A stretch of 32,000 bases of DNA from Tannockella kyphosi (lineage in GTDB: Bacteria; Bacillota_I; Bacilli_A; Erysipelotrichales; Coprobacillaceae). Within the stretch, counting starts at the first letter, position 1. Every line of letters starts with the position of its first letter. The stretch lies in contig NZ_CP088239.1 of the NCBI RefSeq assembly GCF_021054785.1, positions 1,800,001 through 1,832,000 of the forward strand, given 5' to 3'. The notes beneath the pieces were generated by a model. That model worked only from the letters and a program-made list of their open reading frames with translations. It ran no database searches and was not told the origin of the DNA. Both the position numbers and the translations under genes were made by a program. Below are positions 1,722-20,224 of this stretch, one piece after another.

Positions 1722-1882
1722 CACTTACTTTTTTGGAGATCAATCATTGTTTTATACTCACCTTGTTCTTTTATTACATCATCCTGTTTCCTCATTTGAG
1801 AAACTTTTCCTTCTTTTAATAAAACTATTTTATTAGCCTAGCAATACATTCTATATGTTATTACCAATACTGTTTTATCTTT
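1722..1882 (-). pseudogene. Remnant of an ABC-transporter 3' end (copy a), paralogous to the 3' end of 2178..3920
   Basis: Aligns by eye to 2190..2350 (ggagatcaatcatt...ttccttcttttaataaaactattttatt.gc.tagcaata...attac.aatac.gttttatcttt) and contains stop codons. Similarity stops at the same breakpoint as copy c (11883..12046). Confidence 0.7.
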
Positions 1883-2120
1883 AGTATATCTTATAAAACA
1901 CCAAAATATCTCCTTCATTATGTTCTGTAATTAATAGACAGAAGACAACAAGTAGAAAAACGGGGCAAATAATGTATCAAACCTGACAATCGAAATGCAA
2001 AAGGAATAGTTTGAAGGTTACTTCTCTTTAGAACGAATCGAAATAGCAACAATAACACTAAGTTATACACTTTGTGTCCAATCATAAATAAAAGGACGAG
2101 TATCTCGTCCTTTTATTTTA
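1883..2120. repeat. Copy a of a duplicated non-coding segment that follows the ABC remnant (counterpart 12047..12229 plus 13577..13735)
   Basis: Shared strings: tatcttataaaacaccaaaatatctcc.tcattatg.tctgtaattaa, AAAAACGGGGCAAATAAT (1956..1973), and aatcgaaatagcaac.ata.cactaagttatacactttgtg...ataaataaaaggacgag. Copy a lacks the ATPase gene that copy c carries. Confidence 0.7.
2088..2119. terminator. Rho-independent terminator of the ABC operon (hairpin usable in both directions)
   Basis: AAAAGGACGAG tat CTCGTCCTTTT flanked by A and T runs, about 60 nt downstream of the stop at 2178. Confidence 0.7.
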
Positions 2121-2177
2121 GCAGTTTATTCAACAATAGGTCGTGCTTTACCAATTTGATTAATATATACTTTATAC

Positions 2178-3920
2178 TTATAACTTCCAAGTCGTACTTA
2201 AGTTTTGGAGATCAATCATTTTCTTATAATCTCCTTGTTCTTTTATTAAATCATCATGTTTTCCCATTTGAGAAACTTTTCCTTCTTTTAATAAAACTAT
2301 TTTATTGGCTCTAGCAATAGTACGCATTCTATGCGCTATTACTAATACCGTTTTATCTTTTGTAAGATTAGCTATTGCAAGTTGTACTGCAGTTTCATTT
2401 TTAATATCTAATGATGAAGTAGCTTCATCTAATAAGATAATAGGTGCATCTTTTAATAGAGCTCTTGCTATAGAGATTCTTTGTCTTTCTCCACCTGATA
2501 AACTAGAACCATTTTCTCCTATTAATGTCTCATATCCATTTGGTAAGGCCATAATAAAATCATGAGCTTTTGCATGTTTTGATGCTTCTATAATTTCTTG
2601 GTCACTAGCACCTTTTTTACCAATACGAATATTTTCCATTACAGTATTATCAAATAGTGTTACATCTTGGAATACAATAGAAATACTCTTCAGAAGTGTT
2701 TCTGGATCAATAGTAGAAATATCTTCACCACCAATAGTAATGGTTCCTTCTTCAATATCCCAGAATCTAGCAGCTAACTTCATAGCTGTTGTTTTTCCTC
2801 CACCAGAAGGACCTATTAAAGCTGTTACTTCTCCTTGTTTAGCAACAAAAGAAGTACCTTTTAATACATTATCTTCTCCATTGTAAGCAAAGCTTACATT
2901 GTTAAATACGATATCATATCCATTAGGTTCAAAGATTTCTACTCCTGTTTGTATCTTTGTAGATTCTAATTCTTGCATTCTACGAACACTAATCATTGCA
3001 TGGAATATAGCAGCAATATTAATTAAAGCTCCTGCTATAGGTTCAAAGATTCTTGTACTAACCATCATAAATACGATAAATGTTAGAACATCTATTTCTC
3101 CACTACTTAACAATGAAACACCCATTAACATAGAAGTAGCAACACCTACTTTTAAGATCATTTGAGCACTTACTACTGGTAAAGATACTCCTAATTCTGC
3201 AATGACTGAACTTTTTTCAAAGTCTTTTAATTTTTGATTTACTACATCTATATGCATAGCTTGACGATTATTTGCTTTAATATCTCTAATATTTTCAATA
3301 CATTCCATCATCTTATCATCATAAGATAATTTAATGTCTTTTGATTTTTGAGAAAAATTATTTTGAAATCTTCTTGTAAAAATACATAAAAAGAATGCGA
3401 TTGGGACAACCCATAAAGTAGCTAATGCCATCTTCCATTGAAAGAATAATAAACCAATACCTGCAATAAAGATAGAAATAACTGCTCCTACCATTTGTGG
3501 TATATAATGAGAAAATGCTTGTTCTAATTCTGTAGCATCACCCATAATAACAGTAGTTACATCTCCTAAGTCTTTTTTACCAAAGAATGATAATGGTAAT
3601 TTACGAATTGTTTCTGCTAAGCTAATTCTTTTTGCTGCACTTTCTTTATATGCAGATAAGTAATTCGCATTATATGAAATATAATAAGTAATAAAGATAA
3701 AGATTACTAATACCATTCCATAAACTGCATAGAACATAACATGAAACACTGGTGTTTCATTATTAAGTGTTACTAATAGGGCATCTTGTAAAAAATAATA
3801 AACAACTCCCGTTAAACCAAAGATAAGCATATTTACAACAGTTGCCCAAAAGGAAGCTTTTATTAAATCTTTTGCACCTTTTTCACTTAGTGCAAAAGTT
3901 TTTCTTAAATAAGGAATCAT
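2178..3920 (-). CDS. ABC transporter ATP-binding/permease subunit (type I exporter half-transporter, 580 aa)
   Basis: Six-TM N-terminal half, then Walker A GPSGGGKTT, signature LSGGERQR, Walker B ILLDEATSSLD and H-loop IAHR. The start overlaps the upstream stop (TAATG). Confidence 0.9.
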   Translation of the reverse strand: MIPYLRKTFALSEKGAKDLIKASFWATVVNMLIFGLTGVVYYFLQDALLVTLNNETPVFHVMFYAVYGMVLVIFIFITYYISYNANYLSAYKESAAKRISLAETIRKLPLSFFGKKDLGDVTTVIMGDATELEQAFSHYIPQMVGAVISIFIAGIGLLFFQWKMALATLWVVPIAFFLCIFTRRFQNNFSQKSKDIKLSYDDKMMECIENIRDIKANNRQAMHIDVVNQKLKDFEKSSVIAELGVSLPVVSAQMILKVGVATSMLMGVSLLSSGEIDVLTFIVFMMVSTRIFEPIAGALINIAAIFHAMISVRRMQELESTKIQTGVEIFEPNGYDIVFNNVSFAYNGEDNVLKGTSFVAKQGEVTALIGPSGGGKTTAMKLAARFWDIEEGTITIGGEDISTIDPETLLKSISIVFQDVTLFDNTVMENIRIGKKGASDQEIIEASKHAKAHDFIMALPNGYETLIGENGSSLSGGERQRISIARALLKDAPIILLDEATSSLDIKNETAVQLAIANLTKDKTVLVIAHRMRTIARANKIVLLKEGKVSQMGKHDDLIKEQGDYKKMIDLQNLSTTWKL

Positions 3921-6032: not shown

Positions 6033-6073
6033 ATGTGCATTGTATTGATAATGCACATATATATTGTTATAAT
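6033..6073 (+). promoter_or_regulatory. relB/dinJ promoter with overlapping inverted-repeat operator
   Basis: TTGATA (6045..6050), 17 nt, TATAAT (6068..6073). Inverted repeat ATGTGCATT (6033..6041) / AATGCACAT (6050..6058) spans the -35 element. Confidence 0.6.
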
Positions 6074-6104
6074 GAATATACTAATAATAAAAGGAGTTGA
6101 TTAT

Positions 6105-6374
6105 ATGGCTACAACAAACATTACTATTCGAATGGATGCAGACCTCAAAAAACAAGCTGAAGAACTTTTTTCTGATTTAGGTATGAACTTAACCACTGCA
6201 TTTACTGTTTTTGCAAAACAAGCTGTAAGAGAACAAAAATTACCTTTTGTCGTTTCAAGAGCATACAATCCTGAAACAATCCAAGCGATTGAAGATGCTA
6301 GAAATGGTATTGGATTAAGTCGTGGTTTTTCCTCTGTTGCAGAACTTATGGAGGATTTGAATGCTGACGATTAA
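6105..6374 (+). CDS. RelB/DinJ-family type II antitoxin (89 aa)
   Basis: MATTNITIRMDADLKKQAEELFSDLGMNLTTAFTVFAKQAVREQKLPF is the typical DinJ/RelB ribbon-helix-helix N-terminus. RBS AAAGGAG lies 8 nt upstream of the ATG at 6105. The track start at 6033 lies in the promoter. Confidence 0.8.
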   Translation: MATTNITIRMDADLKKQAEELFSDLGMNLTTAFTVFAKQAVREQKLPFVVSRAYNPETIQAIEDARNGIGLSRGFSSVAELMEDLNADD

Positions 6375-6450: not shown

Positions 6451-6696
6451 ATAAGTAAACCTAAGAAACACCGTGGATTTCATATCTACGGTGTTTTGTC
6501 GTTCTTGCGTTTCCTTGCTTTGTGTTGGTTGTTGGTTTCATCCACAAGCAATTCATCAAGTGATTATTACTATTTTGATAAATAAGAAATGATATCCATT
6601 TTATATTTATTATTAATCGAATATTTTAATCATTATTTACATCAATGTACAGAAAGACATGTGCAGATTGTTACACATATGACTTGCCTAATACAT

Positions 6697-6730
6697 CAAA
6701 AAAGAAGCATATCATCGAATGATAATTGCT
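6697..6730 (-). terminator. Probable terminator of the dehydrogenase gene
   Basis: Minus strand: AGCAATTATCAT tcg ATGATATGCT followed by TCTTTTTT, about 80 nt downstream of the stop at 6809. Confidence 0.5.
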
Positions 6731-6808
6731 CCTAATTTAATATACGATGCATTCTTGTATTATCCAAAACAAGAAATGATTGTTATCTTTTAAAATAGTT
6801 AGTCATTA

Positions 6809-7789
6809 TTATAATAGTTCTTTTACATAACTTCCTTTTTCCATTGCAATTAATCCTTCAATACCGCCTCTTACCATTGCTTCTACAGATTCATTAGTAT
6901 AGAAGGCAATATGTGGTGTTAAAACAACATTTGGGAATTGTCTTAAATAAGCCATATCTCGATTAGAAAGTATATCATTTACTAAGCTTTTATGATAAAT
7001 ATATTTTTCTTCTTCAAATACATCTAATCCTAATCCACCTATTTTCTTAGATTCTATTCCTTTTATTAAAGCTTGTAAGTTCATCAATTCTCCTCGTGCA
7101 GTATTAATGAGTATTACTCCATCTTTCATTTTAGAAATAGTATCTTCATTTATCATTTGTGCTGTATCCACACTAAGCATTGTATGAATTGTAATAAGAT
7201 CTGATTGTTTATAAAGCGTATCTAAATCTACATAAGTAGCTATCTTTTCTACTTCAGGATTTTGATAAATATCATATGCTATGATCTTACAACCAAAACC
7301 ACTTAATGATTCCATTACTGTTCTACCAATCTTTCCTGTACCGATTACTCCGACAGTAAGACTTCTTATTGTTTTTCCTTTTAATCCTGTTAAAGAATAA
7401 TCATTTACATTTTGACGATATAAACTTTGTTTATATTTTCTAAGTACTAAAAGTATTAACATAATTGTGAAATCAGCAACACTTTCTGGTGGGTATTCTA
7501 CATTACAAACACGAACACCTATTTTATTTGCATATTTTACATCAATATGATCATAACCTATTGTTCTTGTACTTAAATACTTTATACCATATTCCTTTAA
7601 CTTATCTAAAACTTCACTATCTATTGATTTCATACCAGCAATACTAATAGCATCATAACCAACACATTTCATTATCGTTTCTTCACTAAAAGCACATGTT
7701 ACTATATCAACATGTGTTTTAAGTTCTTTTGTAACTTCTTGGAAAATAGCAATTTCTTCTTCTCTAACATCAAACACTAATATCTTCAT
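6809..7789 (-). CDS. D-isomer-specific 2-hydroxyacid dehydrogenase (D-lactate dehydrogenase-like, 326 aa)
   Basis: NAD-binding motif GVIGTGKIGR, catalytic-type motifs NTARG, DVFEEE and TPHIAFYT. Substrate specificity cannot be read from the sequence. Confidence 0.8.
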   Translation of the reverse strand: MKILVFDVREEEIAIFQEVTKELKTHVDIVTCAFSEETIMKCVGYDAISIAGMKSIDSEVLDKLKEYGIKYLSTRTIGYDHIDVKYANKIGVRVCNVEYPPESVADFTIMLILLVLRKYKQSLYRQNVNDYSLTGLKGKTIRSLTVGVIGTGKIGRTVMESLSGFGCKIIAYDIYQNPEVEKIATYVDLDTLYKQSDLITIHTMLSVDTAQMINEDTISKMKDGVILINTARGELMNLQALIKGIESKKIGGLGLDVFEEEKYIYHKSLVNDILSNRDMAYLRQFPNVVLTPHIAFYTNESVEAMVRGGIEGLIAMEKGSYVKELL

Positions 7790-8048
7790 TCTTATTTCTC
7801 CTTGTTATACATTTATCATCTACATTATTCATACCTTTTATCATTATACGCTTTTTACCTGTTTCTACAACTTTATATTAGGAATACTGTATAAATTAAA
7901 TACTATTATGTTTACTATTTACAATCATCCTATAATGCACTTATATAATTGATTTTCTAACATGATTGCAAAACATTGATAACTCTATAATCTCACGCTA
8001 CATAACATAAGGGAATAATAGTTATTACTAGTGATGTTTGTGAGCGTG

Positions 8049-8097
8049 AAATAATGTTTCTATAGTGTTTACTTCTTATGAGTATCCTATACTACAA
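8049..8097. repeat. R0: decayed partial copy of the array repeat (right-arm part, closest to R4)
   Basis: aaataatgtttctatagtgtttacttcttatgagtatcctatactacaa compares with R4 aaataagagtttttatagtgtttgcatcttataagtatcctaactatag. The hairpin part is not convincingly retained. Confidence 0.4.
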
Positions 8098-8266
8098 TTC
8101 TACTTTCCCAATTTTTCAAATACTAAATCACTTAGATCATTTTCAATTTACCTCTAGCATTAATACGTTTTCTATTGATTAACAGGCTCCTTTATTCTTT
8201 CTAATACTCTTAAAATATAGTATACTTTAAATATATATGATGTATGTATTTACAGGAGGGGACTAA

Positions 8267-8581
8267 ATGCAAGATGTTACAAAACAAATACTAGAGTTTA
8301 CTAGTGAACGAAACTGGGATCAGTTTCATACACCAGAAAATCTAGCAAAGTCTATTTCTATTGAAGCAGCAGAACTACTAGAATGTTATCAATGGAATAG
8401 TAATGGAGATATACAAGAAATAAAAGAAGAATTAGCAGATATCATGAACTACAGTTTATTATTATGTTCTAAATTAGGATTAGATCCTAAAGAAATAATA
8501 TTAGAAAAACTAGAAAAAAATAAAGCAAAATATCCTGTAGAGAAATGCTTTGGTAAAAGTGATAAATACACAAAATTATAA
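8267..8581 (+). CDS. MazG-like nucleotide pyrophosphohydrolase (104 aa, small all-alpha NTP-PPase)
   Basis: ERNWDQFHTPENLAKSISIEAAELLECYQW...EELADIMNYSLLLCSKLGLD is the E-x-x-E ... E-x-x-D pattern of MazG/dCTPase-like proteins. RBS GGAGGGG precedes the ATG. Confidence 0.75.
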   Translation: MQDVTKQILEFTSERNWDQFHTPENLAKSISIEAAELLECYQWNSNGDIQEIKEELADIMNYSLLLCSKLGLDPKEIILEKLEKNKAKYPVEKCFGKSDKYTKL

Positions 8582-8592
8582 GGAGATAATTT

Positions 8593-10473
8593 ATGTTAGT
8601 ATATCAAGGAATAAAAACTGATTTTATTAATGATGTAAATCTTAATTTAATAGTTACTAAAATAAAAGATAAATATTTTGAATTCTTTCATCGAAGTGTA
8701 GGTAAAGCAGAAATAAATTCATGGAAAAACTCTATGCAATATATGCGTGGTGTATTAGATGATAATGAAATACCTAATAATGCAGGTATTGCTATTGAAT
8801 TTAATATTCCTACCACATCTAAGAGAATTGATTTTATTATCTCTGGAAGAGATAATAAAAAGAATGATTCTGTTATTATTGTAGAATTAAAACAATGGGA
8901 AACCGTTACTGCCGTTAAAGATAAAGATGGTATTGTATCTACCTATACAGGTGGTGCGATAAGAGAAGTTACTCACCCATCTTATCAAGCTATGACATAC
9001 GCTAATCTAATTAGAGATTTTAATGAAACAGTACATCAAGAAAATATAGGTTTGTATCCTTGTGCTTTTCTTCATAATTATGATTTAAATGATAATGATC
9101 CTATCTTAGATAATCAATACAAAGAATATATTGATGAAGCTCCTTTATTTGGTAGTAAAGACTTTAAAAAACTTAGAAAATTTATTAAAAAATATATTGT
9201 AGAAGGAGATGATCGTGAACTCCTTTATAAAATAGAAAATGGTAGAATTAAACCTTCTAAAAGATTACAAGATTCACTATCAAAGATGCTAACAGGTAAT
9301 AAAGAATTTCATATGATAGATGACCAAAAGGTCATCTATGAACAAGCAATTCTTGAAGCAAACAATACTATTAATAACGAAGAAAAGAAAGTTTTAATAG
9401 TACAAGGAGGTCCTGGTACTGGTAAGTCTGTTCTAGCAGTAAACCTACTAGTAGAATTCACGAAAAGAAATATGACAAGCTTCTATGTAACAAAGAATAG
9501 TGCTCCTAGAGAAGTTTTTAGTAAGAAATTAAAAGGGACTTTTAAACAAAAACATATCGACAATTTATTTCAGGGTTCTGGTGTTTTTGTTAACTCCGAA
9601 TCAAATGAACTAGACTGTTTAATTGTTGATGAAGCTCATCGCTTAAATGCTAAATCTGGTATGTTTTCTAATTTAGGTGAAAATCAAGTAAAAGAAATTA
9701 TTAATGCTTCTAGATATTCGATATTCTTTATTGATGAAAATCAAAAAGTAACATTTAAAGATATTGGATCTACTCAAATAATTAAGAATTATGCAAAAGA
9801 ATTAAACGCTAATGTTAGTGTAGTAGATTTAGCAAGTCAATTTAGATGTAATGGATCTGATGGTTATTTATCTTGGTTAGATAATGTTCTTGAAATAAAA
9901 GAAACAGCAAACTATGATTTAGAAGATATTAAATATGATTTTCAAGTAGTAGATAATCCTAAAGATTTACAATTATTAATAAATGAAAAAAACGATATAA
10001 ATAATCGTTCTAGAATGGTTGCTGGTTATTGTTGGGATTGGATTTCTTCAGGTAAAAATGATAGTAGAGTACATGATATTGTTATTGATGATTTTTCTAT
10101 AAGTTGGAATTTAGGTAATTCTACTACATGGGCTATTGATGAAAGTTCGATAGAAGAGATTGGATGTATTCATACTAGCCAAGGATTAGAATTTGATTAT
10201 GTTGGTGTTATTATTGGTGATGACTTACGTTATGAGAATGATAAAATTGTTACTGATTTTACTAAACGTGCGAAAACAGACCAATCTATTAAAGGACTTA
10301 AAAAGTTAAAGAAAGAAAATGAGAAAAAAGCCTTAGAAATAGCTGATGAAATTATCAAGAACACTTATCGTACTTTAATGACTAGAGGTATGAAAGGATG
10401 TTATTTGTATTGTACTGATAAAGCATTAGCTAATTATTTTAGGGAAAGAATTACAGGCACCTATAATTTGTAG
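8593..10473 (+). CDS. DUF2075-type SF1 helicase/ATPase with an N-terminal PD-(D/E)xK nuclease-like domain (Schlafen group-III-like / Nhi-like architecture, 626 aa)
   Basis: N-terminus RIDFIISG...VIIVELKQWE (D...E-x-K). Walker A GGPGTGKS, Walker B LIVDEAHRL, then IHTSQGLEFDYVGVIIGDDL and TYRTLMTRGMKGCYLY. The start is 12 nt after the MazG stop, with RBS AAGGAG. Confidence 0.75.
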   Translation: MLVYQGIKTDFINDVNLNLIVTKIKDKYFEFFHRSVGKAEINSWKNSMQYMRGVLDDNEIPNNAGIAIEFNIPTTSKRIDFIISGRDNKKNDSVIIVELKQWETVTAVKDKDGIVSTYTGGAIREVTHPSYQAMTYANLIRDFNETVHQENIGLYPCAFLHNYDLNDNDPILDNQYKEYIDEAPLFGSKDFKKLRKFIKKYIVEGDDRELLYKIENGRIKPSKRLQDSLSKMLTGNKEFHMIDDQKVIYEQAILEANNTINNEEKKVLIVQGGPGTGKSVLAVNLLVEFTKRNMTSFYVTKNSAPREVFSKKLKGTFKQKHIDNLFQGSGVFVNSESNELDCLIVDEAHRLNAKSGMFSNLGENQVKEIINASRYSIFFIDENQKVTFKDIGSTQIIKNYAKELNANVSVVDLASQFRCNGSDGYLSWLDNVLEIKETANYDLEDIKYDFQVVDNPKDLQLLINEKNDINNRSRMVAGYCWDWISSGKNDSRVHDIVIDDFSISWNLGNSTTWAIDESSIEEIGCIHTSQGLEFDYVGVIIGDDLRYENDKIVTDFTKRAKTDQSIKGLKKLKKENEKKALEIADEIIKNTYRTLMTRGMKGCYLYCTDKALANYFRERITGTYNL

Positions 10474-10496
10474 AGACCCTAAAAAATTAGACTTTC

Positions 10497-10527
10497 GAAG
10501 AAGTAGTGTTTTACTACTTCTTTTTAA
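10497..10527 (+). terminator. Rho-independent terminator of the MazG-DUF2075 operon
   Basis: GAAGAAGTAGT gtttt ACTACTTCTT followed by TTT, 25 nt after the stop. Confidence 0.75.
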
Positions 10528-10691
10528 TACTGTCCGAGCAATTCTATATTCAATCAAATTCATCCAAGACAGTTCTTGCTTAATTCCACAATGATTATAA
10601 TGATAATATATTTTTTTCTATCGCCTGCTTTAGCTCTTCATAACAATAAACATTCGTCTCTTAAATAATCTTGCACATTTTTTTCGATTTA

Positions 10692-11882
<1,191 letters not shown>

Positions 11883-12046
11883 ACTTGAGTTTTGAAAATC
11901 AATCATCTTCTTATAAGCAGACTATTCTATTATAAGTTCATCATTTTTCCCCACTTGATAAACTTGTCCTTGTTTTAACAAAACGATCTTATCGCTCTAG
12001 CAATAATACGCATTCTATGTGTTATTACTAATACTGTTTTATCTTT
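11883..12046 (-). pseudogene. Remnant of an ABC-transporter 3' end (copy c), directly abutting the IS3 right end
   Basis: acttgagttttgaaaatcaatcat...ctctagcaataatacgcattctatgtgttattactaatactgttttatcttt aligns to 2190..2350 and to copy a. It shares copy a's breakpoint. Confidence 0.7.
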
Positions 12047-12123
12047 AGTATATCTTGTACAACATCAAAATATCTCCTACATTATGATCTGTAATTAAGA
12101 AACAGGAGACAACAAATAGAAAT

Positions 12124-12200
12124 ACGGGACAATACCATACATATTATTACTAAAAACGGGGCAATATAAAGAATACAGTATTGAAAAAACGGGGCAAATA
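12124..12200 (+). promoter_or_regulatory. Three direct ACGGG(G/A)CAA(T) boxes upstream of the DUF4143 ATPase gene
   Basis: ACGGGACAAT (12124), ACGGGGCAAT (12156) and ACGGGGCAAAT (12189), spaced 32-33 bp apart, about three helical turns. One box is also present in copy a (1956..1973). Confidence 0.4.
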
Positions 12201-12229
12201 ATATATTGTATAGTTGGAGGTATAAATAT

Positions 12230-13576
12230 ATGTATAGAAAAGATTCCCTTATGATTAAAGATTGGCTTGAAAAATCAAATAAAGCTTTATTAGTAACAGG
12301 AGCAAGACAAATAGGTAAAACTTGGTTAATACGTGATGAGATTGAAAAAAGTAGTTATATAAAGTTCGAAGTGAATTTTATTGATCAACCTAATATGGTT
12401 GAGTATTTAAATGTCAACATAAGTGCAGAGGAATTTCTAATTAAGTTAAAAATGATTATGCCAGAGAACTGTAAACCAAAAGAAACAGTAATATTTTTTG
12501 ACGAGGTTCAAAAATGCCCTGAAATAGTCACAAAAATTAAATTCCTTGTGGATGAAGGTAGTTATAAATATATACTGAGTGGCTCATTATTAGGAGTTGA
12601 TCTGAAAGGAATAGCATCAGCTCCTGTTGGATACTTATCTATTCTAAGGATGTATCCTATGGATTTTGAAGAATTTATGCTAGCAAATAATATATCAAAC
12701 ATGACAATCGAGATGTTAAAAGAAAAGTTTGAAACAAAAAGCCCTGTAGATGACTTCATTCACCAAAAACTTTTATCCCTATTTTTTATATACCTTATTG
12801 TTGGTGGAATGCCGGAGGCTGTAAAAACTTATATTGATACAAAAGATATTAGGGATGTTGATAAAGTACAACATGATATCGTCTTACTTTACAAAGAAGA
12901 TTTTACACAATATGAACTGGAGGATAAAAAACTTAGGTTGAAATCTATATATGATATTATTCCAGCGGAGCTAAACAAGCAGAATAAGAAATTCGTTTTC
13001 ACTATGTTAGACAAAGAACTTAAGTTTAACAGATATGAAAATAGCTTTTTATGGTTAAAAGATGCAGGTGTGGCTTTGCCAGTTTATAATGTTGATGTAC
13101 CAATTATTCCACTTTTAGCAAGCAAGAAGAGTAACGTGTTCAGACTCTTTTCCAGTGATATAGGATTATTGACTAGTCAATATCCATCACAAACAAAGAT
13201 TGAGTTAATTAATAATAATGGAGAAGTAAATAATGGTGCACATTTTGAAAATATTGTAGCGCAGCAATTAGTTGCAAATGGATTTGATCCATATTTTTGT
13301 AAAAAGAAAAATATAGGAGAACTAGACTTTGTAATAGAAATGGAAGGTAATATTGTTCCAATTGAAGTCAAATCTGGGAACGACTATAAATCACATAAGG
13401 CTTTGAGTGATTTTTTGAATGTACCCGAGTATCATATTGATAGGGCATATGTTTTTTGCAAAGGAAATGTAGATGTTAAAGAAAAAGTAACATATCTTCC
13501 AATTTACATGTGTTATCTTCTAAAAGAAAAGAAACTTCCCATGATGAAAGTAGAATTAGATCTTAATGGTTTGTAG
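12230..13576 (+). CDS. AAA+ ATPase of the AAA_14/DUF4143 family (COG1373-like, 448 aa)
   Basis: Walker A LLVTGARQIGKT, Walker B-like VIFFDEVQ, plus the C-terminal ...GELDFVIE...PIEVKSG motif typical of DUF4143. ATG at 12230 follows GGAGG. The track start at 12206 is a TTG. Confidence 0.8.
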   Translation: MYRKDSLMIKDWLEKSNKALLVTGARQIGKTWLIRDEIEKSSYIKFEVNFIDQPNMVEYLNVNISAEEFLIKLKMIMPENCKPKETVIFFDEVQKCPEIVTKIKFLVDEGSYKYILSGSLLGVDLKGIASAPVGYLSILRMYPMDFEEFMLANNISNMTIEMLKEKFETKSPVDDFIHQKLLSLFFIYLIVGGMPEAVKTYIDTKDIRDVDKVQHDIVLLYKEDFTQYELEDKKLRLKSIYDIIPAELNKQNKKFVFTMLDKELKFNRYENSFLWLKDAGVALPVYNVDVPIIPLLASKKSNVFRLFSSDIGLLTSQYPSQTKIELINNNGEVNNGAHFENIVAQQLVANGFDPYFCKKKNIGELDFVIEMEGNIVPIEVKSGNDYKSHKALSDFLNVPEYHIDRAYVFCKGNVDVKEKVTYLPIYMCYLLKEKKLPMMKVELDLNGL

Positions 13577-13693
13577 AATAGCTAATATAAATCGAGTAGA
13601 GAGCTTTATCAAGTTTAGAGCTTTGTTCTTTCTAAAATGAATAGAAATAGCAACTATAGCACTAAGTTATACACTTTGTGTTAGATCATAAAT

Positions 13694-13730
13694 AAAAGGA
13701 CGAGGTATCATATCAGATTTCGTCCTTTTA
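13694..13730 (+). terminator. Terminator after the ATPase gene (copy c counterpart of 2088..2119)
   Basis: AAAAGGACGA ...15-nt loop... TCGTCCTTTT, then a T-rich tail. Confidence 0.55.
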
Positions 13731-15382: not shown

Positions 15383-15425
15383 TTTTCATTCTTTTTTAAA
15401 ACAAAAAACTCTCCTAAGAAAGTTT
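15383..15425 (-). repeat. R1: truncated array repeat (left flank plus terminator hairpin only); terminator of the ATPase gene
   Basis: tttttcattcttttttaaaacaaaaaACTCTCCTAAGAAAGTT, hairpin 15407..15424. Homology ends 10 nt from the stop of 15435..16637. Confidence 0.75.
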
Positions 15426-15434
15426 CCTGTCTTC

Positions 15435-16637
15435 TTAACATAGCAAGAAATCTACTATATTTTGATGAATAATACCATTTCTACTCATATCAAATTCATC
15501 ATAAGATATTACATACTTTGGATGATTATCTGATATACTTTCTAATACCGAAAACTCATGTTCAACCACTTCTTCACTTGCAAGCAAATATGCTACTTGA
15601 ATATAGATTTTTTCACTTTGTTTTCTAGCAATAAAATCAATTTCTTTCGTTCCATTTTTACCAACCGTAATAGTATATCCTCTACGTAGTAATTCTACAT
15701 ACACAATATTTTCAAACATAAGATTAATATCTTTCCTATTTCCACCAAATACCGCTTCTCTTAATCCCTGATCAACAAGATAATACTTCTCATTGACCGA
15801 TAGAATCTTTTTACCTTGTATATCTTCTCTTTTCACCCTATAAAATAAATAAGCAGATTCACATGCTCTAATATAATTTAAAACTGTTTCTGGAGAAACA
15901 ACTCTCCCTTCATTTTTAAAATATTTTGAAATGTTCGTTGCAGAAAAGGTAGTTCCTATGTTTGTTGTAACATATGCGATAATGCGCTCCAGTAAATCTA
16001 CATCACGAATATTATTTCGTTTTACTACATCTTTTAACACTAGTGCACTATATAAATCTTTAAGATACATCTTACTTGGTTCTACATCAAATTGTAAATT
16101 ACTAAGATACGGCATACCTCCCATAGTTAAGTATTGTTTAAAAATATCATTAGGACTACTATTAGGAAATAGTTTATTGTAACTCATTGCAAACTCTTCT
16201 AAGGAAAAAGGATAAATAACAAATTCAACATAACGCCCTGATAAATAACTTGCAAGTTCACTAGATAGTAACTTTGCATTTGATCCAGTAATATAAATAT
16301 CACAATCAAATTCCACCCTAAAAGAATTAATTGCTTTTTCCCAATCCTTTACTTCCTGTATTTCATCAAAGAATAAATATACTTTATCATTATTATCCAA
16401 AATGAATTCACTTACTTTATCATGCAATGCGCTTGCTGATAAAATATCAGCATGCCTCATATCTTCAAAGTTAAACTCTATAAACTGTTGTTTATTTACG
16501 CCCTGTCTTAATAATTCTTCTTGTATAAGTTTTAACATAACTGACTTCCCACTTCTACGTACACCTGTTAATACTTTTACCAAATCTTTATTTATAAATG
16601 GCCTGATTTTTTTTAAATACTGTTCACGTTCAATCAT
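15435..16637 (-). CDS. AAA+ ATPase of the AAA_14/DUF4143 family (400 aa)
   Basis: Walker A VLTGVRRSGKS, Walker B LFFDEIQE, C-terminal KEIDFIA...YIQV motif. ATG at 16637 follows GAGGTG. The track start at 16670 adds 11 unsupported codons. Confidence 0.85.
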   Translation of the reverse strand: MIEREQYLKKIRPFINKDLVKVLTGVRRSGKSVMLKLIQEELLRQGVNKQQFIEFNFEDMRHADILSASALHDKVSEFILDNNDKVYLFFDEIQEVKDWEKAINSFRVEFDCDIYITGSNAKLLSSELASYLSGRYVEFVIYPFSLEEFAMSYNKLFPNSSPNDIFKQYLTMGGMPYLSNLQFDVEPSKMYLKDLYSALVLKDVVKRNNIRDVDLLERIIAYVTTNIGTTFSATNISKYFKNEGRVVSPETVLNYIRACESAYLFYRVKREDIQGKKILSVNEKYYLVDQGLREAVFGGNRKDINLMFENIVYVELLRRGYTITVGKNGTKEIDFIARKQSEKIYIQVAYLLASEEVVEHEFSVLESISDNHPKYVISYDEFDMSRNGIIHQNIVDFLLC

Positions 16638-16706
16638 TAGAATCACCTCACTAATATTATAGTATACCACTTATATGTTTTATTCAATCAAATATGATAG
16701 TTTTAA

Positions 16707-16758
16707 CAGTTATAACCGTGATAATTGGTATATTTATATATTTTATCAGTTATAACTG
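16707..16758. promoter_or_regulatory. Two CAGTTATAAC(C/T)G palindromes upstream of the ATPase gene
   Basis: CAGTTATAACCG (16707..16718) and the perfect palindrome CAGTTATAACTG (16747..16758), offset 40 bp, lie 70-120 bp upstream of the start. Confidence 0.4.
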
Positions 16759-16887
16759 CTAAAATATATTTATTTCGTTATGCTTTTAGAATTTCAACAA
16801 TAACATTCCTGTCCCTTAAAGTCGTGACAATAAATCAAGTAATCTTATTTGTAATATTCTTTAGCTTCTTCTATAACTTTATTTATA

Positions 16888-17066
16888 AATAAAAAAACTC
16901 TCCTAAGAGAGTTCAAGTTCATGCATAAATCTAACAGTTTGAAGTATTATAACTATCTTTTTGTTATAAATATTCGTTATAAAACAAGAGTTTTTATAGT
17001 GTTTGCATCTTACGAGCATCTTAATCAAATGCACTCAAACAAAGTTTACATCGTATTATGTTCATA
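16888..17066 (-). repeat. R2: full array repeat (subfamily A core; right arm shared with R5)
   Basis: Hairpin AACTCTCCTAAGAGAGTT at 16896..16913, then gttcaagttcatgcataaatctaacagtttgaagtattataactatctttttgtta...tttttatagtgtttgcatcttacgagcatcttaatcaaatgcactc...cgtattatgttcata. It ends 4 nt from the VOC stop codon. Confidence 0.85.
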
Positions 17067-17069
17067 TTT

Positions 17070-17564
17070 TTAATAAGCACCCTTAGAATAAGTCACTTCA
17101 TAGCTATGCGTATAAATTTCGAATACAATACCAAATGGATCTTCAACATAACACATTTTATATGGTTTTTCATTTGGATAGTATTCCTTGATAGGCATAC
17201 GTTGTTTACCACCATGAGATACAATTTTTTCAATCATACCCTCAATATCTGGATCCTGCACAGAAAAATGGAAAAGACCTGTATTTTTGAATTCAAATGG
17301 TTGCGTTTTTTTATCGTTATCCACAAACTCAAATAGTTCTATTCCAATGGCGTTTGAAGTGACCATGTGAGCAATTTTGAAATCTCCATGCCCTTTACCG
17401 AATACTTCCTCGCACATAATTCCGATTGCAGAAGTATTTTCCTCTTTGATAACTGATGGTTCCATTACAACATACCAACCCATTACCTCGCTATAAAACT
17501 TAACCGCCCGTTCTAAATTAGACACAGACAAACCTATGTGTGAAAATGCTCTTGGATAATTCAT
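17070..17564 (-). CDS. VOC-family (glyoxalase/bleomycin-resistance/dioxygenase fold) protein, 164 aa
   Basis: FSHIGLSVSNLERAVKFYSEVMGW... and ...LFHFSVQDPDIEGM...DPFGIVFEIY are the paired beta-alpha-beta-beta-beta module signatures. Confidence 0.75.
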   Translation of the reverse strand: MNYPRAFSHIGLSVSNLERAVKFYSEVMGWYVVMEPSVIKEENTSAIGIMCEEVFGKGHGDFKIAHMVTSNAIGIELFEFVDNDKKTQPFEFKNTGLFHFSVQDPDIEGMIEKIVSHGGKQRMPIKEYYPNEKPYKMCYVEDPFGIVFEIYTHSYEVTYSKGAY

Positions 17565-17638
17565 TTTCGTACCTCCTTTCGAGATACTTTAATAATATAG
17601 TAATATAAAGATTAAGAGAATAACGTACTTTTTTGTAC

Positions 17639-17980
17639 CTATGTATTATCAATCATTATTTCATTTTCACTAGCATATTCTTTTGAAAAATCACAAAATC
17701 CCTCCACAAGAGGAATAAGTCCTTTGTAGCGCGGTGAGAGTGAATATACTACATTAAGTGGTTTCTCACATACCACAGTCCTTACTAATATATTGCTTAA
17801 CTCAAGCTCCTTTAATTGTGTGACAAGCATTTTATGTGTTATATCAGGGATACCTCTTTGCAGTAAAGAAAAACGATTATCTCCATTTAAGATATGCCAC
17901 AAAATCCTCATTTTCCATTTCCCACCTAGCAAATCCATTGATAACAGCAATGCACAAGTGTATTGTTTTTTTATCTTCAT
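17639..17980 (-). CDS. HxlR-family winged-helix transcriptional regulator (113 aa)
   Basis: C..LLSMDLLGGKWKMRILWHIL.G..RF..L.R.IP.IT.KMLVTQLKELE...IV.R is a typical HxlR/MarR-like signature. It lies directly upstream of the VOC gene. Confidence 0.8.
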   Translation of the reverse strand: MKIKKQYTCALLLSMDLLGGKWKMRILWHILNGDNRFSLLQRGIPDITHKMLVTQLKELELSNILVRTVVCEKPLNVVYSLSPRYKGLIPLVEGFCDFSKEYASENEIMIDNT

Positions 17981-18245
17981 CTTACATTCCTTATTATATA
18001 AATTTTAATTGTTCTTACTTTTTTATTAACATATTTTATTGTAAAACAAATACCAACTACAATCAATGTATACAAACCATATATTTGAGTATTAGTATAT
18101 CCTATATAAATCAGTATTGTTATAGTAGTGAATAGACTTATACATACAATATCCTACAAATGCACCATTACAAATATTTTGCATACCGTTCTTGTTTCAT
18201 AACAAATCAGGCTTCATCTAATATAAACACCCTATATATGCAAAT

Positions 18246-18430
18246 TTTATCATACTAGACTTACGCATTCAATGATGGATAACAAATTAAAAACTCTCCT
18301 AAGAGAGTTCAAGTTCATGCATAAATCTAACAGTTTGAAGTATTATAACTATCTTTTTGTTATAAATATTCGTTATAAAACAAGCATTTTTATAGCATTT
18401 GCATATTATGAACAACATAACAACATCGTA
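18246..18430 (-). repeat. R3: full array repeat (subfamily A core; left flank and right arm shared with R6)
   Basis: Left flank ttatcatactagacttacGcattcaatgatggataacaaat, hairpin 18292..18309, core as in R2, arm ...gcatattatgaacaacataacaacatcgtac. Confidence 0.85.
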
Positions 18431-18477
18431 CTAATTACAATAATGGTTATTCAATATTCATTGATTGTTTTATTTTA

Positions 18478-18512
18478 AACGCACGGATAAACGCACGCGT
18501 GCGTTTATCGCA
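18478..18512 (-). promoter_or_regulatory. Orphan CG-box element (promoter-only remnant) containing a 22-bp perfect palindrome
   Basis: AAACGCACGGATAAACGCACGCGTGCGTTTATCGC is colinear with ctAAACGCACtctAACGCGCGCGTGTGTTTAT at 15212..15244. The palindrome ATAAACGCACGCGTGCGTTTAT is at 18487..18508. No downstream gene follows. Confidence 0.5.
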
Positions 18513-18585
18513 TTACTAACATATCTAAACATACATCACTCTTTTTGGTTTGTCAGATCACTAATAAATATTAGAAAAATACTGT

Positions 18586-19875
18586 TTATAACTGATCTGC
18601 TAGCATGTATTTTGTGTTTTTTCCATTTCCTACTTTTACAATAATACCTAGTTTAAGCATTTCACCAATAATACTGTTAGCTCTGGTTACTTTAACATCT
18701 AACAATTCTTCTATTGATAGACGTGTGATATATTTGTTATTTTTTAAATATTCAACTACTAAATTATGTGTTTTTGATAAACCTATTGTGTCATTATTCA
18801 TATTTGGAAGAGTAACTCTAAATGCACCATCTGCATTTTCAAATACTGGTTTATTGATGCATTTATTGTAAGAACTCATTATTTTACCAACACCAATACC
18901 ATAGGATTCAATTAATTGCATTCTATAAAATAATGCTGCTAATTTTTCATTTCTTGCTTGTGATGCACCTAAAAGAATAGCTTCTATCGACATCCCAGAA
19001 ACAAGGCCTCCTAAAGAAACAATCTCAATTTTATTGGAATACACATTAATAAAAGTATCTCCACTATAACTATAATCTCGATGTACGATTGCATTTAATA
19101 ATGCTTCTCTTAATGATAATTCCGGATAATCTTTTTGATCAATTCTTAATAAGCCATCAAATGATGCACTTGTTCTATTATATAACTCAAGTGTAGCATA
19201 TGCATCATTTAATTGTTTAAAAATAGAACCTTTAAATTCTTTTCTATCTATAAAAACACTTTTATCATTGCCTTGAAATACAGCAAGTTTAATAGAATGA
19301 ATACATTCATCTGATGTTAGTAAAGCAAGATTTGTATACATTTCATCATTATTGATAAAACCTAAATTATGCATTTGAACCTGACCAAACTCTAGGTTCC
19401 TTTTTTTCATTTCTTCATTCATTGTATTGAAATGTAAATTTTGTTCAATAGAACGACTATTCTCAAAAGAATCTCCATCTGTTAATTTTATCATCTGGCG
19501 AATTGCATCTTGTGATGCAGGAGCAGAAGATGTCCCTTGTCTAACGTAGACACCTGATGATTTCATTCCCTTATCTTTAAGATAATAAGGTTTTCTTGTT
19601 CCCTCTTCAACAGTTACTTTGATGATATCTTTATTTTCTTCTACTAGTGATTCCACACGTATAAACATCATAGCATCAGGTAAGATATTATCACGAAGAA
19701 GATTCGTTATCGCTAACATAACTTCATCAACATCATTTATTCCAACCACTTCACCACTATCAGCAATTCCTTCATATATTGTTCCACCATCACAGTTAAT
19801 AAATGCAATGACTTCTTTCTTCAAATCTTGTGTATATTTTTCTTTTAACTCTACTTTATAACCCTCTTTAAACAT
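18586..19875 (-). CDS. COG2865-type protein: AlbA_2 (Schlafen-like) N-domain + HATPase_c_4 + C-terminal wHTH (429 aa), paralogue 1
   Basis: N-terminus EGYKVELKEK...NCDGGTIYEGI, central LREALLNAIVHRDYS, C-terminus ITRLSIEELLDVKVTRANSIIGEMLKLGII. RBS AAAGGAG. Confidence 0.8.
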   Translation of the reverse strand: MFKEGYKVELKEKYTQDLKKEVIAFINCDGGTIYEGIADSGEVVGINDVDEVMLAITNLLRDNILPDAMMFIRVESLVEENKDIIKVTVEEGTRKPYYLKDKGMKSSGVYVRQGTSSAPASQDAIRQMIKLTDGDSFENSRSIEQNLHFNTMNEEMKKRNLEFGQVQMHNLGFINNDEMYTNLALLTSDECIHSIKLAVFQGNDKSVFIDRKEFKGSIFKQLNDAYATLELYNRTSASFDGLLRIDQKDYPELSLREALLNAIVHRDYSYSGDTFINVYSNKIEIVSLGGLVSGMSIEAILLGASQARNEKLAALFYRMQLIESYGIGVGKIMSSYNKCINKPVFENADGAFRVTLPNMNNDTIGLSKTHNLVVEYLKNNKYITRLSIEELLDVKVTRANSIIGEMLKLGIIVKVGNGKNTKYMLADQL

Positions 19876-19879
19876 CTTT

Positions 19880-19945
19880 CTATCTCCTTTCTATCACTAT
19901 TCTCTTTCTATCACTGATAGTATCATGTTTTGTGATAGAATACAA
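19880..19945 (-). promoter_or_regulatory. Promoter of paralogue 1 with a tetO-like palindrome and reiterated GATAGAAAG half-sites
   Basis: Minus strand: TTGTAT (19945..19940), 17 nt, TACTAT (19922..19917). The palindrome CTATCACTGATAG (19908..19920) overlaps the -10 element. Further half-sites lie at 19932..19938, 19891..19897 and 19880..19884. Confidence 0.55.
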
Positions 19946-19960
19946 CTTTTTATATAAAAT

Positions 19961-20127: not shown

Positions 20128-20224
20128 TCATACAACAATAGTGCTTTTTTACTAGCACATACTGATATAACACGTAATCTTGAGTATATCACCCAAAAAT
20201 GAAGACTAAAAATAGTTAATCCAT

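What the first reader, a model, noticed from the sequence alone, without database searches (positions are those of the whole stretch)
8267..10473. MazG-like NTP pyrophosphohydrolase coupled to a PD-(D/E)xK-DUF2075 nuclease-helicase: candidate two-gene defence module
The two genes form a tight operon with a 12-nt gap, a shared terminator at 10497..10527, and no other partners. The large protein combines an N-terminal restriction-endonuclease-like motif (RIDFIISG...VELKQWE) with an SF1 P-loop helicase of the DUF2075 type. As far as I recall, this is the architecture of the staphylococcal nuclease-helicase immunity protein Nhi and of the C-terminal helicase of group-III Schlafens. The MazG-like partner suggests an added nucleotide-level activity, such as hydrolysis of canonical or phage-modified dNTPs or of a signalling nucleotide. 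I do not know of a characterised system with this pairing. The operon lies between a decayed array repeat (R0) and an IS3 remnant, inside the accessory region.
Basis: partly seen in the sequence, partly recalled or inferred. Interest (0 to 1): 0.75.

Follow-up and report, generated by a model that had tools for sequence, protein, structure and literature searches.

The report
Pyrophosphatase-partnered nuclease-helicase defence module
Two tightly linked genes, a small dCTP-pyrophosphatase-like enzyme and a nuclease-helicase related to known anti-phage proteins, form a pair that travels together between distant bacteria, archaea and a phage, sits among defence genes, and has not been described as a system in any source I could search.

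Summary
Window 8267-8581 encodes a 104-aa MazG-like/DCTPP1-type NTP pyrophosphohydrolase with all four metal ligands. Window 8593-10473 encodes a 626-aa protein with an N-terminal PD-(D/E)xK nuclease (E69, D80, E98xK100, Q132xxxY136) and a DUF2075/Schlafen-group-III SF1 helicase. The gap is 11 nt, and a hairpin plus U-tract follows.

The pairing is conserved well beyond close relatives. A MazG-like gene is adjacent on the same strand in 58 of 76 assessable species-level loci (56-80% identity), upstream or downstream. Four more loci carry a different all-alpha NTP pyrophosphatase. The pair also occurs in a haloarchaeal plasmid, a Priestia plasmid and a Microcystis phage.

In the reverse direction, 50 of 59 assessable MazG-like loci carry a DUF2075 gene, with either a PD-(D/E)xK or a GIY-YIG nuclease. 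Neighbours are typical defence-island and mobile-element genes.

The large protein is not a member of the Nhi, Nhi-like or PDC-S41 HMM families. It shares their architecture and, remotely, their nuclease domain. PADLOC has no model for the partner, and no paper links MazG with DUF2075.

Verdict: a real, conserved, uncharacterised two-gene variant of Nhi-type immunity. Defence activity and the pyrophosphatase's role remain inferred.

The parts
8254..8259 (+). Shine-Dalgarno AGGAGG, 7 nt before the ATG of the MazG-like gene
   Evidence: Read directly from the sequence.
8267..8581 (+). MazG-like/DCTPP1-type all-alpha NTP pyrophosphohydrolase, 104 aa. Metal ligands are E33, E36 (ExxE) and E55, D58 (ExxD).
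   Evidence: ORF. PF12643 at 67.5 bits. PDB matches: 4qgp at E=1e-19, and mouse/human DCTPP1 (6sqw, 2a3q, 7mu5) at E=1.5e-15 to 8e-13. E33, E36, E55, D58, W17, W43, Y62 and K88 are invariant or nearly so in 59 orthologues.
8580..8585 (+). Shine-Dalgarno AAGGAG for the second gene. It overlaps the stop codon of the first gene, and the intergenic gap is 11 nt.
   Evidence: Read directly from the sequence.
8593..9378 (+). N-terminal PD-(D/E)xK (RecB-like) nuclease domain plus helical linker, residues 1-262. Catalytic motif: E69, D80, E98-x-K100, Q132-xxx-Y136.
   Evidence: No Pfam model matches. The motif residues are invariant across this family and PDC-S41. AF2 model: pLDDT 91, pTM 0.89, with the alpha-beta-beta-beta-alpha-beta core. 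Best Foldseek PDB hits are all PD-(D/E)xK proteins but weak: Card1 at E=0.02, then Cas4-family ACE1, MspI, EndoMS. hhalign against the Nhi-like/PDC-S41 N-termini gives probability 76%, E=2e-5.
9385..10419 (+). DUF2075/Schlafen-group-III SF1 helicase domain, residues 265-609. Walker A is GGPGTGKS (272-279), Walker B is DEAH (346-349), and a motif-VI-like TRGMKG lies at 597-602.
   Evidence: PF09848 at E=7e-106, model positions 1-354 of 354. The motif residues are invariant in alignment A1.
10497..10528 (+). Probable intrinsic terminator closing the two-gene operon: a 12-bp stem, 3-nt loop and U-tract.
   Evidence: Fold energy -12.7 to -13.2 kcal/mol, z = -2.3. Not flagged by the G-C-dependent scan.

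Best explanation
This is a horizontally mobile two-gene immunity-type operon.

The large protein is the effector. It is an ATP-driven SF1 (DUF2075) helicase that feeds DNA to its own N-terminal PD-(D/E)xK nuclease, as shown experimentally for Nhi and inferred for Nhi-like proteins.

The small protein is an active DCTPP1-type dNTP pyrophosphohydrolase that works on the nucleotide pool, not on DNA.

My preferred reading of the coupling (inferred): the nuclease-helicase attacks foreign, probably base-modified or replicating, DNA. The pyrophosphatase destroys non-canonical dNTPs such as 5-substituted dCTPs. That would either stop modified nucleotides released from degraded invader DNA from entering the host chromosome and making it a target (autoimmunity control), or deprive the invader of the modified precursors that would shield its DNA.

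Shown here: domains, catalytic residues, operon structure, conserved and co-inherited pairing, and defence or mobile context.

Inferred: anti-phage activity, substrate, and the logic of the coupling.
For: **Operon and domains:**

**The pyrophosphatase looks active.** It aligns over its full length to solved DCTPP1/RS21-C6 and 4qgp. All four metal ligands and the aromatic pocket residues are invariant in 59 orthologues.

**Nuclease:** the motif is invariant. A confident AF2 model has the canonical core. The top PDB fold hits are PD-(D/E)xK proteins. There is remote homology to the nuclease domain of the experimentally validated Nhi-like protein.

**Pairing, forward direction:**
- 58 of 76 assessable species-level loci have a PF12643-type gene adjacent on the same strand: 49 upstream and 9 downstream.
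- 4 more loci have a different all-alpha NTP pyrophosphatase downstream.
- The pair is present in a Halalkalicoccus plasmid (51% identity), a Priestia plasmid (41%) and a Microcystis phage (51% for the large protein, 48% for the small).
- A 25%-identical DUF2075 gene on B. thuringiensis plasmids lies two genes downstream of an NTP pyrophosphohydrolase gene, with an HNH endonuclease gene between them.

**Pairing, reverse direction:** 50 of 59 assessable MazG-like loci from metagenomes carry a DUF2075 gene within 1.5 kb on the same strand. The nuclease is either PD-(D/E)xK or GIY-YIG.

**Co-inheritance:** the pairwise-identity matrices of the two proteins correlate at r=0.73, and 0 of 999 permutations reach that value.

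**Context:** at least 40 of 81 loci have a PADLOC-typed defence neighbour within 5 kb (IetAS, AbiEi, AbiL, type IV REase, MTases, PDC-S41, PDC-S72 Fic). Nine have serine recombinases, and one sits at a prophage end.

**Link to modification:**
- The validated Nhi-like system is escaped by loss of a phage DNA methylase.
- MazG-like genes without DUF2075 sit next to GmrSD in two loci.
- A DUF3578 gene overlaps the pyrophosphatase gene in Priestia.
- DCTPP1 is known to hydrolyse 5-methyl-dCTP (abstracts, plus established knowledge).
Against: - No experiment exists for this family.
- The large protein scores only 53-54 bits, and only partially, against the Nhi, AbiO and PDC-S41 models. BLASTP against validated Nhi-like gives only E=3e-4.
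- The validated B. cereus Nhi-like works alone and has no adjacent pyrophosphatase. So the partner is not needed by all such enzymes.
- 14 of 76 assessable loci have no detectable NTP pyrophosphatase.
- One lineage has an N6/N4 methyltransferase translationally coupled downstream. That fits classical restriction-modification logic better than modification-dependent restriction.
- The structural match to solved nucleases is below significance (best E=0.02).
- The defence-island counts have no matched background control.
- Substrate specificity is extrapolated from a mammalian homologue.
Confidence: 0.6

Rival explanations
1. This is a housekeeping genome-maintenance pair. The pyrophosphatase sanitises the dNTP pool, and the nuclease-helicase processes DNA that already contains damaged or non-canonical bases. 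There is no role in conflict with phages or plasmids.
For: DCTPP1-type enzymes are classical house-cleaning enzymes (abstracts). NUDIX/MutT genes recur nearby, in 6 loci and in the Priestia plasmid. Y-family polymerase genes sit next to MazG-like genes in three metagenome loci.
Against: - The distribution is patchy. Only 247 confirmed relatives were found by the pattern scan of 185,579 species genomes, which is a lower bound.
- The family jumps between Bacillota, Bacteroidota, Saccharibacteria, Pseudomonadota, methanogens, haloarchaea and a cyanophage at 50-75% identity.
- It is carried on plasmids, at prophage ends and beside recombinases and IS elements.
- Its neighbours are defence genes.
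- Its closest characterised relatives are anti-phage proteins.
Confidence: 0.1
2. These are two independent single-gene defences that merely sit side by side in defence islands. One is a dNTP-depleting pyrophosphatase and the other a stand-alone Nhi-like nuclease-helicase.
For: Validated Nhi and Nhi-like proteins act alone. Nucleotide-depleting enzymes are known stand-alone defences (mentioned). Unrelated genes are often inserted between the two.
Against: - Adjacency on the same strand holds in 76-82% of loci, in both orders and with two different nuclease types.
- A second NTP-pyrophosphatase family replaces the first in some loci.
- The two proteins' divergences are correlated.
- In this window the gap is 11 nt and the ribosome-binding site overlaps the upstream stop codon.
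- No other neighbour comes close to this frequency.
Confidence: 0.12
3. The pyrophosphatase is a regulator, not a pool sanitiser. It would hydrolyse a signalling nucleotide or alarmone that switches the nuclease-helicase on or off, as E. coli MazG limits MazEF toxicity by degrading (p)ppGpp. Alternatively, it would act as an antitoxin-like brake by binding.
For: The E. coli mazEFG precedent (established knowledge). The pyrophosphatase is small and always co-oriented. Nuclease-NTPase defences commonly form regulated complexes.
Against: - The protein belongs to the DCTPP1/PF12643 branch and keeps DCTPP1's base-stacking aromatic residues (W17, W43, Y62). That argues for a dNTP substrate.
- No nucleotide cyclase or synthetase is conserved in the neighbourhood.
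- Interchange with a PRA-PH-like pyrophosphatase argues against a specific protein-protein brake.
Confidence: 0.1

Closest known systems
Nhi-like (Bacillus cereus FSL H8-0482; Millman et al. 2022) and the related PADLOC candidate PDC-S41
   Same: Both have an N-terminal nuclease with the same E...D...ExK...QxxxY motif followed by a DUF2075 SF1 helicase. Both live in defence islands, and PDC-S41 genes even sit in the same loci.
   Different: Sequence relationship is only remote: BLASTP E=3e-4, PDC-S41 HMM 54 bits and partial, hhalign probability 76%. The validated Nhi-like protein is a stand-alone gene with no adjacent pyrophosphatase, whereas this family keeps one in about 80% of loci.
Nhi (SERP2475, Staphylococcus epidermidis; Bari et al. 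2022)
   Same: Same architecture: a PD-(D/E)xK nuclease plus a DUF2075 SF1B-type helicase. For Nhi, both activities are needed for immunity.
   Different: The Nhi HMM matches only residues 256-450 (53 bits), not the nuclease domain. Nhi has a C-terminal glyoxalase/bleomycin-resistance-like domain and acts as a single gene. Neither applies here.
DCTPP1 / RS21-C6 (mammalian dCTP pyrophosphatase 1) and archaeal pyrophosphatase PDB 4qgp
   Same: Same Pfam family. There is a full-length alignment with identical metal ligands (E63/E66/E95/D98 correspond to E33/E36/E55/D58) and identical aromatic pocket residues.
   Different: The prokaryotic protein is a minimal 104-aa version encoded in an operon with a nuclease-helicase. 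Its substrate is untested.
Group III Schlafen proteins (SLFN5/11/13 helicase domain)
   Same: The helicase domain belongs to the same Pfam family, PF09848.
   Different: No Schlafen core or AlbA_2 RNase domain is present. Sequence search finds no solved Schlafen chain. The N-terminal nuclease has a different fold.
Type IV (modification-dependent) restriction enzymes such as GmrSD
   Same: GmrSD genes are found next to close relatives of the same pyrophosphatase. Nhi-like is sensitised by phage DNA methylation.
   Different: No modification-reading domain was identified in the 626-aa protein. This link is circumstantial.

Membership tests
MazG-like / DCTPP1-type all-alpha NTP pyrophosphohydrolase (PF12643) | Profile match above the curated threshold | tested here: met
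   67.5 bits against a cut-off of 27. PDB homologues match at E=1e-19 to 1e-11.
MazG-like / DCTPP1-type all-alpha NTP pyrophosphohydrolase (PF12643) | Four acidic metal ligands, ExxE ... ExxD | tested here: met
   E33, E36, E55 and D58 align with DCTPP1 E63, E66, E95 and D98. They are invariant in 59 orthologues.
MazG-like / DCTPP1-type all-alpha NTP pyrophosphohydrolase (PF12643) | dNTP to dNMP + PPi activity, and substrate preference | not testable with these tools
   Needs an enzyme assay.
DUF2075 / Schlafen group III SF1 helicase (PF09848) | Full-length profile match with intact Walker A and Walker B | tested here: met
   354.9 bits over model positions 1-354 of 354. GGPGTGKS and DEAH are invariant.
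PD-(D/E)xK nuclease superfamily (RecB-like branch) | The D ... (D/E)xK catalytic motif on adjacent strands, plus the QxxxY helix motif | tested here: met
   D80, E98, K100, Q132 and Y136 are invariant, and E69 is invariant or nearly so (at least 90%), across 121 + 8 sequences that include PDC-S41. In the model they lie on strand 2, strand 3 and the following helix.
PD-(D/E)xK nuclease superfamily (RecB-like branch) | Significant structural match to a solved member | tested here: inconclusive
Nhi (S. epidermidis SERP2475 family) | Full-length match to the family model | tested here: not met
   The PADLOC Nhi model scores 52.9 bits over residues 256-450 only.
Nhi (S. epidermidis SERP2475 family) | PD-(D/E)xK + DUF2075 helicase architecture | tested here: met
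.
Nhi-like (Millman 2022) / PDC-S41 | Sequence membership (family HMM, or clear pairwise similarity) | tested here: not met
   The PDC-S41 HMM scores 53.7 bits and is partial, against 808 bits for true members. BLASTP to Nhi-like gives E=3e-4.
Nhi-like (Millman 2022) / PDC-S41 | Homologous N-terminal nuclease domain | tested here: inconclusive
   hhalign gives probability 76%, E=2e-5, with the catalytic columns aligned. The motif is shared in the MAFFT alignment.
Nhi-like (Millman 2022) / PDC-S41 | Anti-phage activity | not testable with these tools
   Needs a phage challenge.
Any catalogued multi-gene defence system (PADLOC-DB v2.0.0) | Both genes match models of one system | tested here: not met
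   The MazG-like protein has no PADLOC hit. The large protein has only weak hits to single-gene models.

The most novel reading that the evidence does not exclude
DCTPP1-type pyrophosphatases may be a general self-protection device for modification-sensing nucleases (nuclease-DUF2075 proteins with either a PD-(D/E)xK or a GIY-YIG head, and GmrSD). When modified invader DNA is degraded, its modified nucleotides could be salvaged into modified dNTPs. The pyrophosphatase would destroy these so that the host chromosome never acquires the mark that the nuclease attacks. That would be a prokaryotic counterpart of the role DCTPP1 plays for 5-methyl-dCTP in mammalian cells, and a new principle for how type-IV-like immunity avoids autoimmunity.
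Probability: 0.2. Interest if true: 0.8.

Novelty: new variant of a known kind. Interest (0 to 1): 0.62.

Why it matters
Nuclease-helicase proteins of the DUF2075/Schlafen type are a recurring antiviral solution from bacteria to humans. How they discriminate and avoid self-damage is largely unknown.

A conserved, co-inherited nucleotide-pool enzyme at their side points to a layer of control at the dNTP level. It is found with two different nuclease heads and is replaceable by another pyrophosphatase family.

This gives a directly testable hypothesis: modified-dNTP sanitation coupled to restriction. It also defines a compact two-gene module, about 2.2 kb, that spreads across domains of life. 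Current defence-annotation resources would score it at best as a weak single-gene hit.

Tried and rejected
- **Full-length AF2 model:** built from a shallow 22-sequence alignment (72-84% identity). It gave pLDDT 54 and was discarded. A 121-sequence N-terminal alignment solved this.
- **Sequence searches of the large protein or its profile against PDB:** no hits.
- **Pfam on the N-terminal 255 residues alone:** nothing meaningful.
- **Generic promoter scan:** no more sites than in shuffles, and the generic terminator scan found none.
- **Rfam on 7700-10900:** empty.
- **Literature searches:** DUF2075+MazG; MazG-like + defense system + helicase; Nhi + pyrophosphohydrolase. None found a description of the pair.
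- **Membership in Nhi, in Nhi-like/PDC-S41 and in AbiO:** rejected on HMM coverage and score.
- **Is the B. thuringiensis NTP-PPase-HNH-DUF2075 locus the validated Nhi-like?** It is not; similarity is only E=2e-6. The real Nhi-like locus has no pyrophosphatase.
- **Decayed repeat next to the operon:** I looked and found none.
Full report
**What is in the window**

The window comes from Tannockella kyphosi (Bacillota, Erysipelotrichales, Coprobacillaceae). The 626-aa product is 100% identical to a protein of that species on a 2.26-Mb contig.

Two ORFs lie exactly where the finding says: 8267..8581 (104 aa) and 8593..10473 (626 aa), both on the + strand.
- The gap between them is 11 nt (8582-8592), not 12.
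- AGGAGG lies 7 nt before the first ATG.
- AAGGAG overlaps the stop codon of the first gene and serves the second.

A 12-bp hairpin at 10497-10523 followed by a U-run folds at about -13 kcal/mol, z = -2.3. A generic terminator scan that requires three G-C pairs does not flag it. The upstream neighbour is a divergent 2-hydroxyacid dehydrogenase gene 477 nt away. Downstream is a broken IS3-type transposase. Rfam finds nothing in the region. In this genome, therefore, it is a self-contained two-gene operon.

**The small protein**

It matches PF12643 (MazG-like) at 67.5 bits against a cut-off of 27. It aligns over its full length with solved structures: an archaeal pyrophosphatase (4qgp, E=1e-19) and mouse and human dCTP pyrophosphatase 1/RS21-C6 (E=1.5e-15 to 4e-11).

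In that alignment E33, E36, E55 and D58 fall on the DCTPP1 residues E63, E66, E95 and D98. I recall these as the metal ligands. W17, W43 and Y62 fall on W47, W73 and Y102, which I recall as the base-stacking pocket. All of these residues are invariant or nearly so in 59 orthologues taken from related loci. It is therefore very probably an active dNTP pyrophosphohydrolase. Its substrate is not known.

**The large protein**

Residues 265-609 match the whole PF09848 model (Schlafen group 3 helicase, formerly DUF2075) at E=7e-106. Walker A (GGPGTGKS) and Walker B (DEAH) are invariant.

Residues 1-260 match no Pfam model and no PDB sequence. Across 121 homologues (47-77% identity) the following are invariant: R78, D80, E98, K100, W102, H128, P129, Y131, Q132, Y136. 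E69 is nearly invariant. The same E...D...ExK...QxxxY pattern is shared with the paralogous PDC-S41 family. From general knowledge, this is the signature of RecB-like PD-(D/E)xK nucleases.

A first full-length AlphaFold model from a shallow alignment was poor (pLDDT 54). A second model of the N-terminal 262 residues, from the deeper alignment, is confident (pLDDT 91, pTM 0.89). It has the canonical order:
- helix 38-55;
- strand 65-71, carrying E69;
- strand 78-86, carrying D80;
- strand 92-100, carrying E98 and K100;
- an inserted hairpin;
- helix 129-149, carrying Q132 and Y136;
- strand 153-160.

**Is the pairing conserved?**

*Forward direction.* A scan of one genome per species returned 80 loci with homologues at 56-80% identity. 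They come from Bacilli, Clostridia, Saccharibacteria, Muribaculaceae-labelled MAGs, Methanosphaera, Methanobrevibacter and cultured Bacillaceae.
- In 58 of 76 assessable loci a PF12643-type gene lies next to the large gene on the same strand.
- It is upstream in 49 loci and downstream in 9. The downstream cases include Pseudobutyrivibrio, other Lachnospiraceae and Amphibacillus.
- Four of the remaining loci (Bacillus-clade) instead carry a different small all-alpha NTP pyrophosphatase immediately downstream. It gives weak PRA-PH and MazG-like matches.
- No other neighbour comes close. The next most frequent is a Fic protein, in 17 loci.

The pair also occurs in more distant settings:
- A Halalkalicoccus jeotgali plasmid: 51% identity, 5-nt gap.
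- A Priestia plasmid: 41% identity.
- A Microcystis phage: 51% and 48% identity for the two proteins, 14-nt gap.
- B. thuringiensis plasmids, where a 25%-identical DUF2075 gene lies two genes downstream of an NTP pyrophosphohydrolase gene, with an HNH endonuclease gene between them.

*Reverse direction.* I scanned metagenomes with the small protein. Of 59 assessable loci encoding close relatives, 50 have a DUF2075 gene within 1.5 kb on the same strand. Of these, 22 belong to this family and 28 are other or partial, mostly GIY-YIG-DUF2075 proteins.

*Co-inheritance.* The pairwise-identity matrices of the two proteins are correlated (r=0.73), and none of 999 permutations reaches that value. The pair is therefore inherited and transferred as a unit. 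The link is to 'nuclease + DUF2075 helicase' in general, not to one nuclease type.

**Context**

Recurrent neighbours were typed with Pfam and PADLOC. They are:
- IetA/IetS;
- AbiEi;
- AbiL/AriA-like;
- a PLD-helicase typed as a type IV restriction enzyme;
- C5 and N6/N4 methyltransferases;
- PDC-S41 (a paralogous nuclease-DUF2075 protein, 808 bits);
- the Fic candidate PDC-S72;
- serine recombinases.

At least 40 of 81 loci have one such typed defence neighbour within 5 kb. This is a lower bound, because only recurrent clusters were typed, and there is no matched background control. One lineage sits at the end of a prophage, after the lysin gene. Others are on plasmids.

The family is rare and patchy across two domains of life at 50-75% identity. 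That is the pattern of mobile accessory genes, not of housekeeping ones.

**Relation to known systems**

PADLOC gives the large protein only weak, partial hits: PDC-S41 at 54 bits, Nhi at 53 bits over residues 256-450, and AbiO at 53 bits. It gives the small protein none.

Staphylococcal Nhi has the same architecture, and its nuclease and helicase motifs are both needed for immunity. This protein is not a member of that family.

The 'Nhi-like' protein validated by Millman et al. was retrieved from their supplement.
- It is clearly related to PDC-S41 (26% identity, E=4e-37).
- It is only marginally related to this protein by BLASTP (E=3e-4).
- A profile-profile comparison of the N-terminal domains gives 76% probability, E=2e-5, with the catalytic columns aligned.
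- In its native plasmids the validated Nhi-like gene stands alone, with no pyrophosphatase.

So this is a third lineage of Nhi-type enzymes, distinguished by a conserved NTP-pyrophosphatase partner. Searches of the paper library found no article that mentions DUF2075 together with MazG, nor any description of such a pair.

**How it probably works**

By analogy with Nhi, the large protein uses ATP-driven translocation or unwinding to present DNA to its own nuclease.

The role of the pyrophosphatase is inferred. Three observations point to base-modified nucleotides:
1. The enzyme is of the DCTPP1 type. DCTPP1 is known for hydrolysing 5-substituted dCTPs such as 5-methyl-dCTP (abstracts; established knowledge).
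2. Phages escape the validated Nhi-like system by losing their own DNA methylase, so methylation sensitises them.
3. Relatives of this pyrophosphatase that lack a DUF2075 neighbour sit next to GmrSD, a modification-dependent restriction enzyme, in two loci. In Priestia, the gene overlapping the pyrophosphatase gene encodes a DUF3578 protein, which I recall as an McrB-N-like domain.

I therefore favour a model in which the nuclease-helicase attacks modified or replicating invader DNA while the pyrophosphatase removes modified dNTPs. This would serve either to keep salvaged modified nucleotides out of the host chromosome or to starve the invader of them.

Evidence against this specific model:
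- One lineage has a methyltransferase translationally coupled downstream of the helicase gene.
- No modification-reading domain was identified.
- 14 of 76 assessable loci have no pyrophosphatase.

Rivals are housekeeping repair, two independent defences, and a signal-degrading regulator. They are listed separately, and none fits the pairing statistics and context as well.

**Verdict**

It is a real, widely transferred, uncharacterised two-gene variant of Nhi-type nuclease-helicase immunity.

I am confident of the module and its parts. I am moderately confident of a defence role. I have low confidence in the exact job of the pyrophosphatase.

Noticed in passing
Related loci, e.g. L041:4702-6000, L049:4973-5998, L018:2675-3325, L023:539-1186, L027:400-2118, L057:4920-5987: In about 24 of the 49 loci where the MazG-like gene is upstream, the gap to the DUF2075 gene exceeds 60 nt, and most of these hold one or two unrelated genes. 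These include a reverse transcriptase, an RNase T-type exonuclease with BRCT, DUF4145, a small HNH protein, a GIY-YIG-DUF2075 paralogue, and several unknowns with HEPN-like RxxxxH motifs. The slot behaves like a hotspot for defence cargo embedded inside the pair.
   Followed up: partly
L004:3895-5345, and 16 other loci (e.g. L009:4799-5644): A Fic-domain protein matching the PADLOC candidate PDC-S72 (280 bits) lies directly upstream of the MazG-like gene in 17 loci. An AbiEi-like regulator often precedes it. This may be a longer Fic-MazG-DUF2075 unit, or an adjacent system. It is absent from the window.
   Followed up: partly
L004:7880-10514 (also L005, L006, L025): In one lineage the DUF2075 gene is overlapped at its 3' end by an N6/N4 DNA methyltransferase gene, followed by a DndB-like gene. 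This suggests a restriction-modification-like extension of the module.
   Followed up: no
L145:152-2221 and the matching position in L148; L106:1965-3401: Close relatives of the MazG-like protein that lack a DUF2075 neighbour sit immediately downstream of a GmrSD type IV restriction endonuclease (two loci), or near a Y-family (ImpB/UmuC) polymerase (three loci).
   Followed up: partly
L075:8227-8550, L085:8049-8507, L086:8120-8443, L087:7964-8302: Bacillus-clade homologues replace the PF12643 partner with a different small all-alpha NTP pyrophosphatase (KLVRDKIPEII... type, weak PRA-PH/MazG-like hits). It lies downstream of the helicase gene and is followed by an HNH_4 protein or a PLD-helicase type IV enzyme.
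   Followed up: partly
window 15383-26869: An array of six to seven copies of a 45-150-nt repeat, containing the palindrome ACTCTCCTAAGAGAGT, is spaced 1.4-2.9 kb apart. Each interval holds one or two minus-strand genes (AAA_14-DUF4143 ATPase, SLFN_AlbA_2/HATPase_c_4, others).
   Followed up: no
window 1731-2364 versus 11890-12132 and 13612-13704: Segments around the 3' end of the ABC-transporter gene are duplicated (73-92% identity) about 10 kb downstream, on both sides of the AAA_14-DUF4143 gene at 12206-13576. The duplicates bracket the block that contains the MazG-DUF2075 operon and the IS3 remnant, which suggests an IS-mediated rearrangement or insertion.
   Followed up: no
window 6033-6374: A RelB-family antitoxin ORF has no recognisable toxin gene next to it. 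The only nearby ORF is 48 aa, at 6589-6735.
   Followed up: no
window 8593-9378 (protein residues 1-262): The N-terminal nuclease domain has no Pfam model, although more than 3,000 database proteins match its profile. These include proteobacterial, Patescibacteria and archaeal sequences.
   Followed up: partly
L020, L051, L088 (Methanosphaera/Methanobrevibacter), L089 (Halalkalicoccus), L033/L034 (Saccharibacteria), L175 (Microcystis phage): Homologues at 51-73% identity occur in methanogen and haloarchaeal genomes or plasmids, in episymbiotic Saccharibacteria and in a cyanophage. This indicates recent transfer between domains. Some MAG assignments may reflect binning errors.
   Followed up: partly
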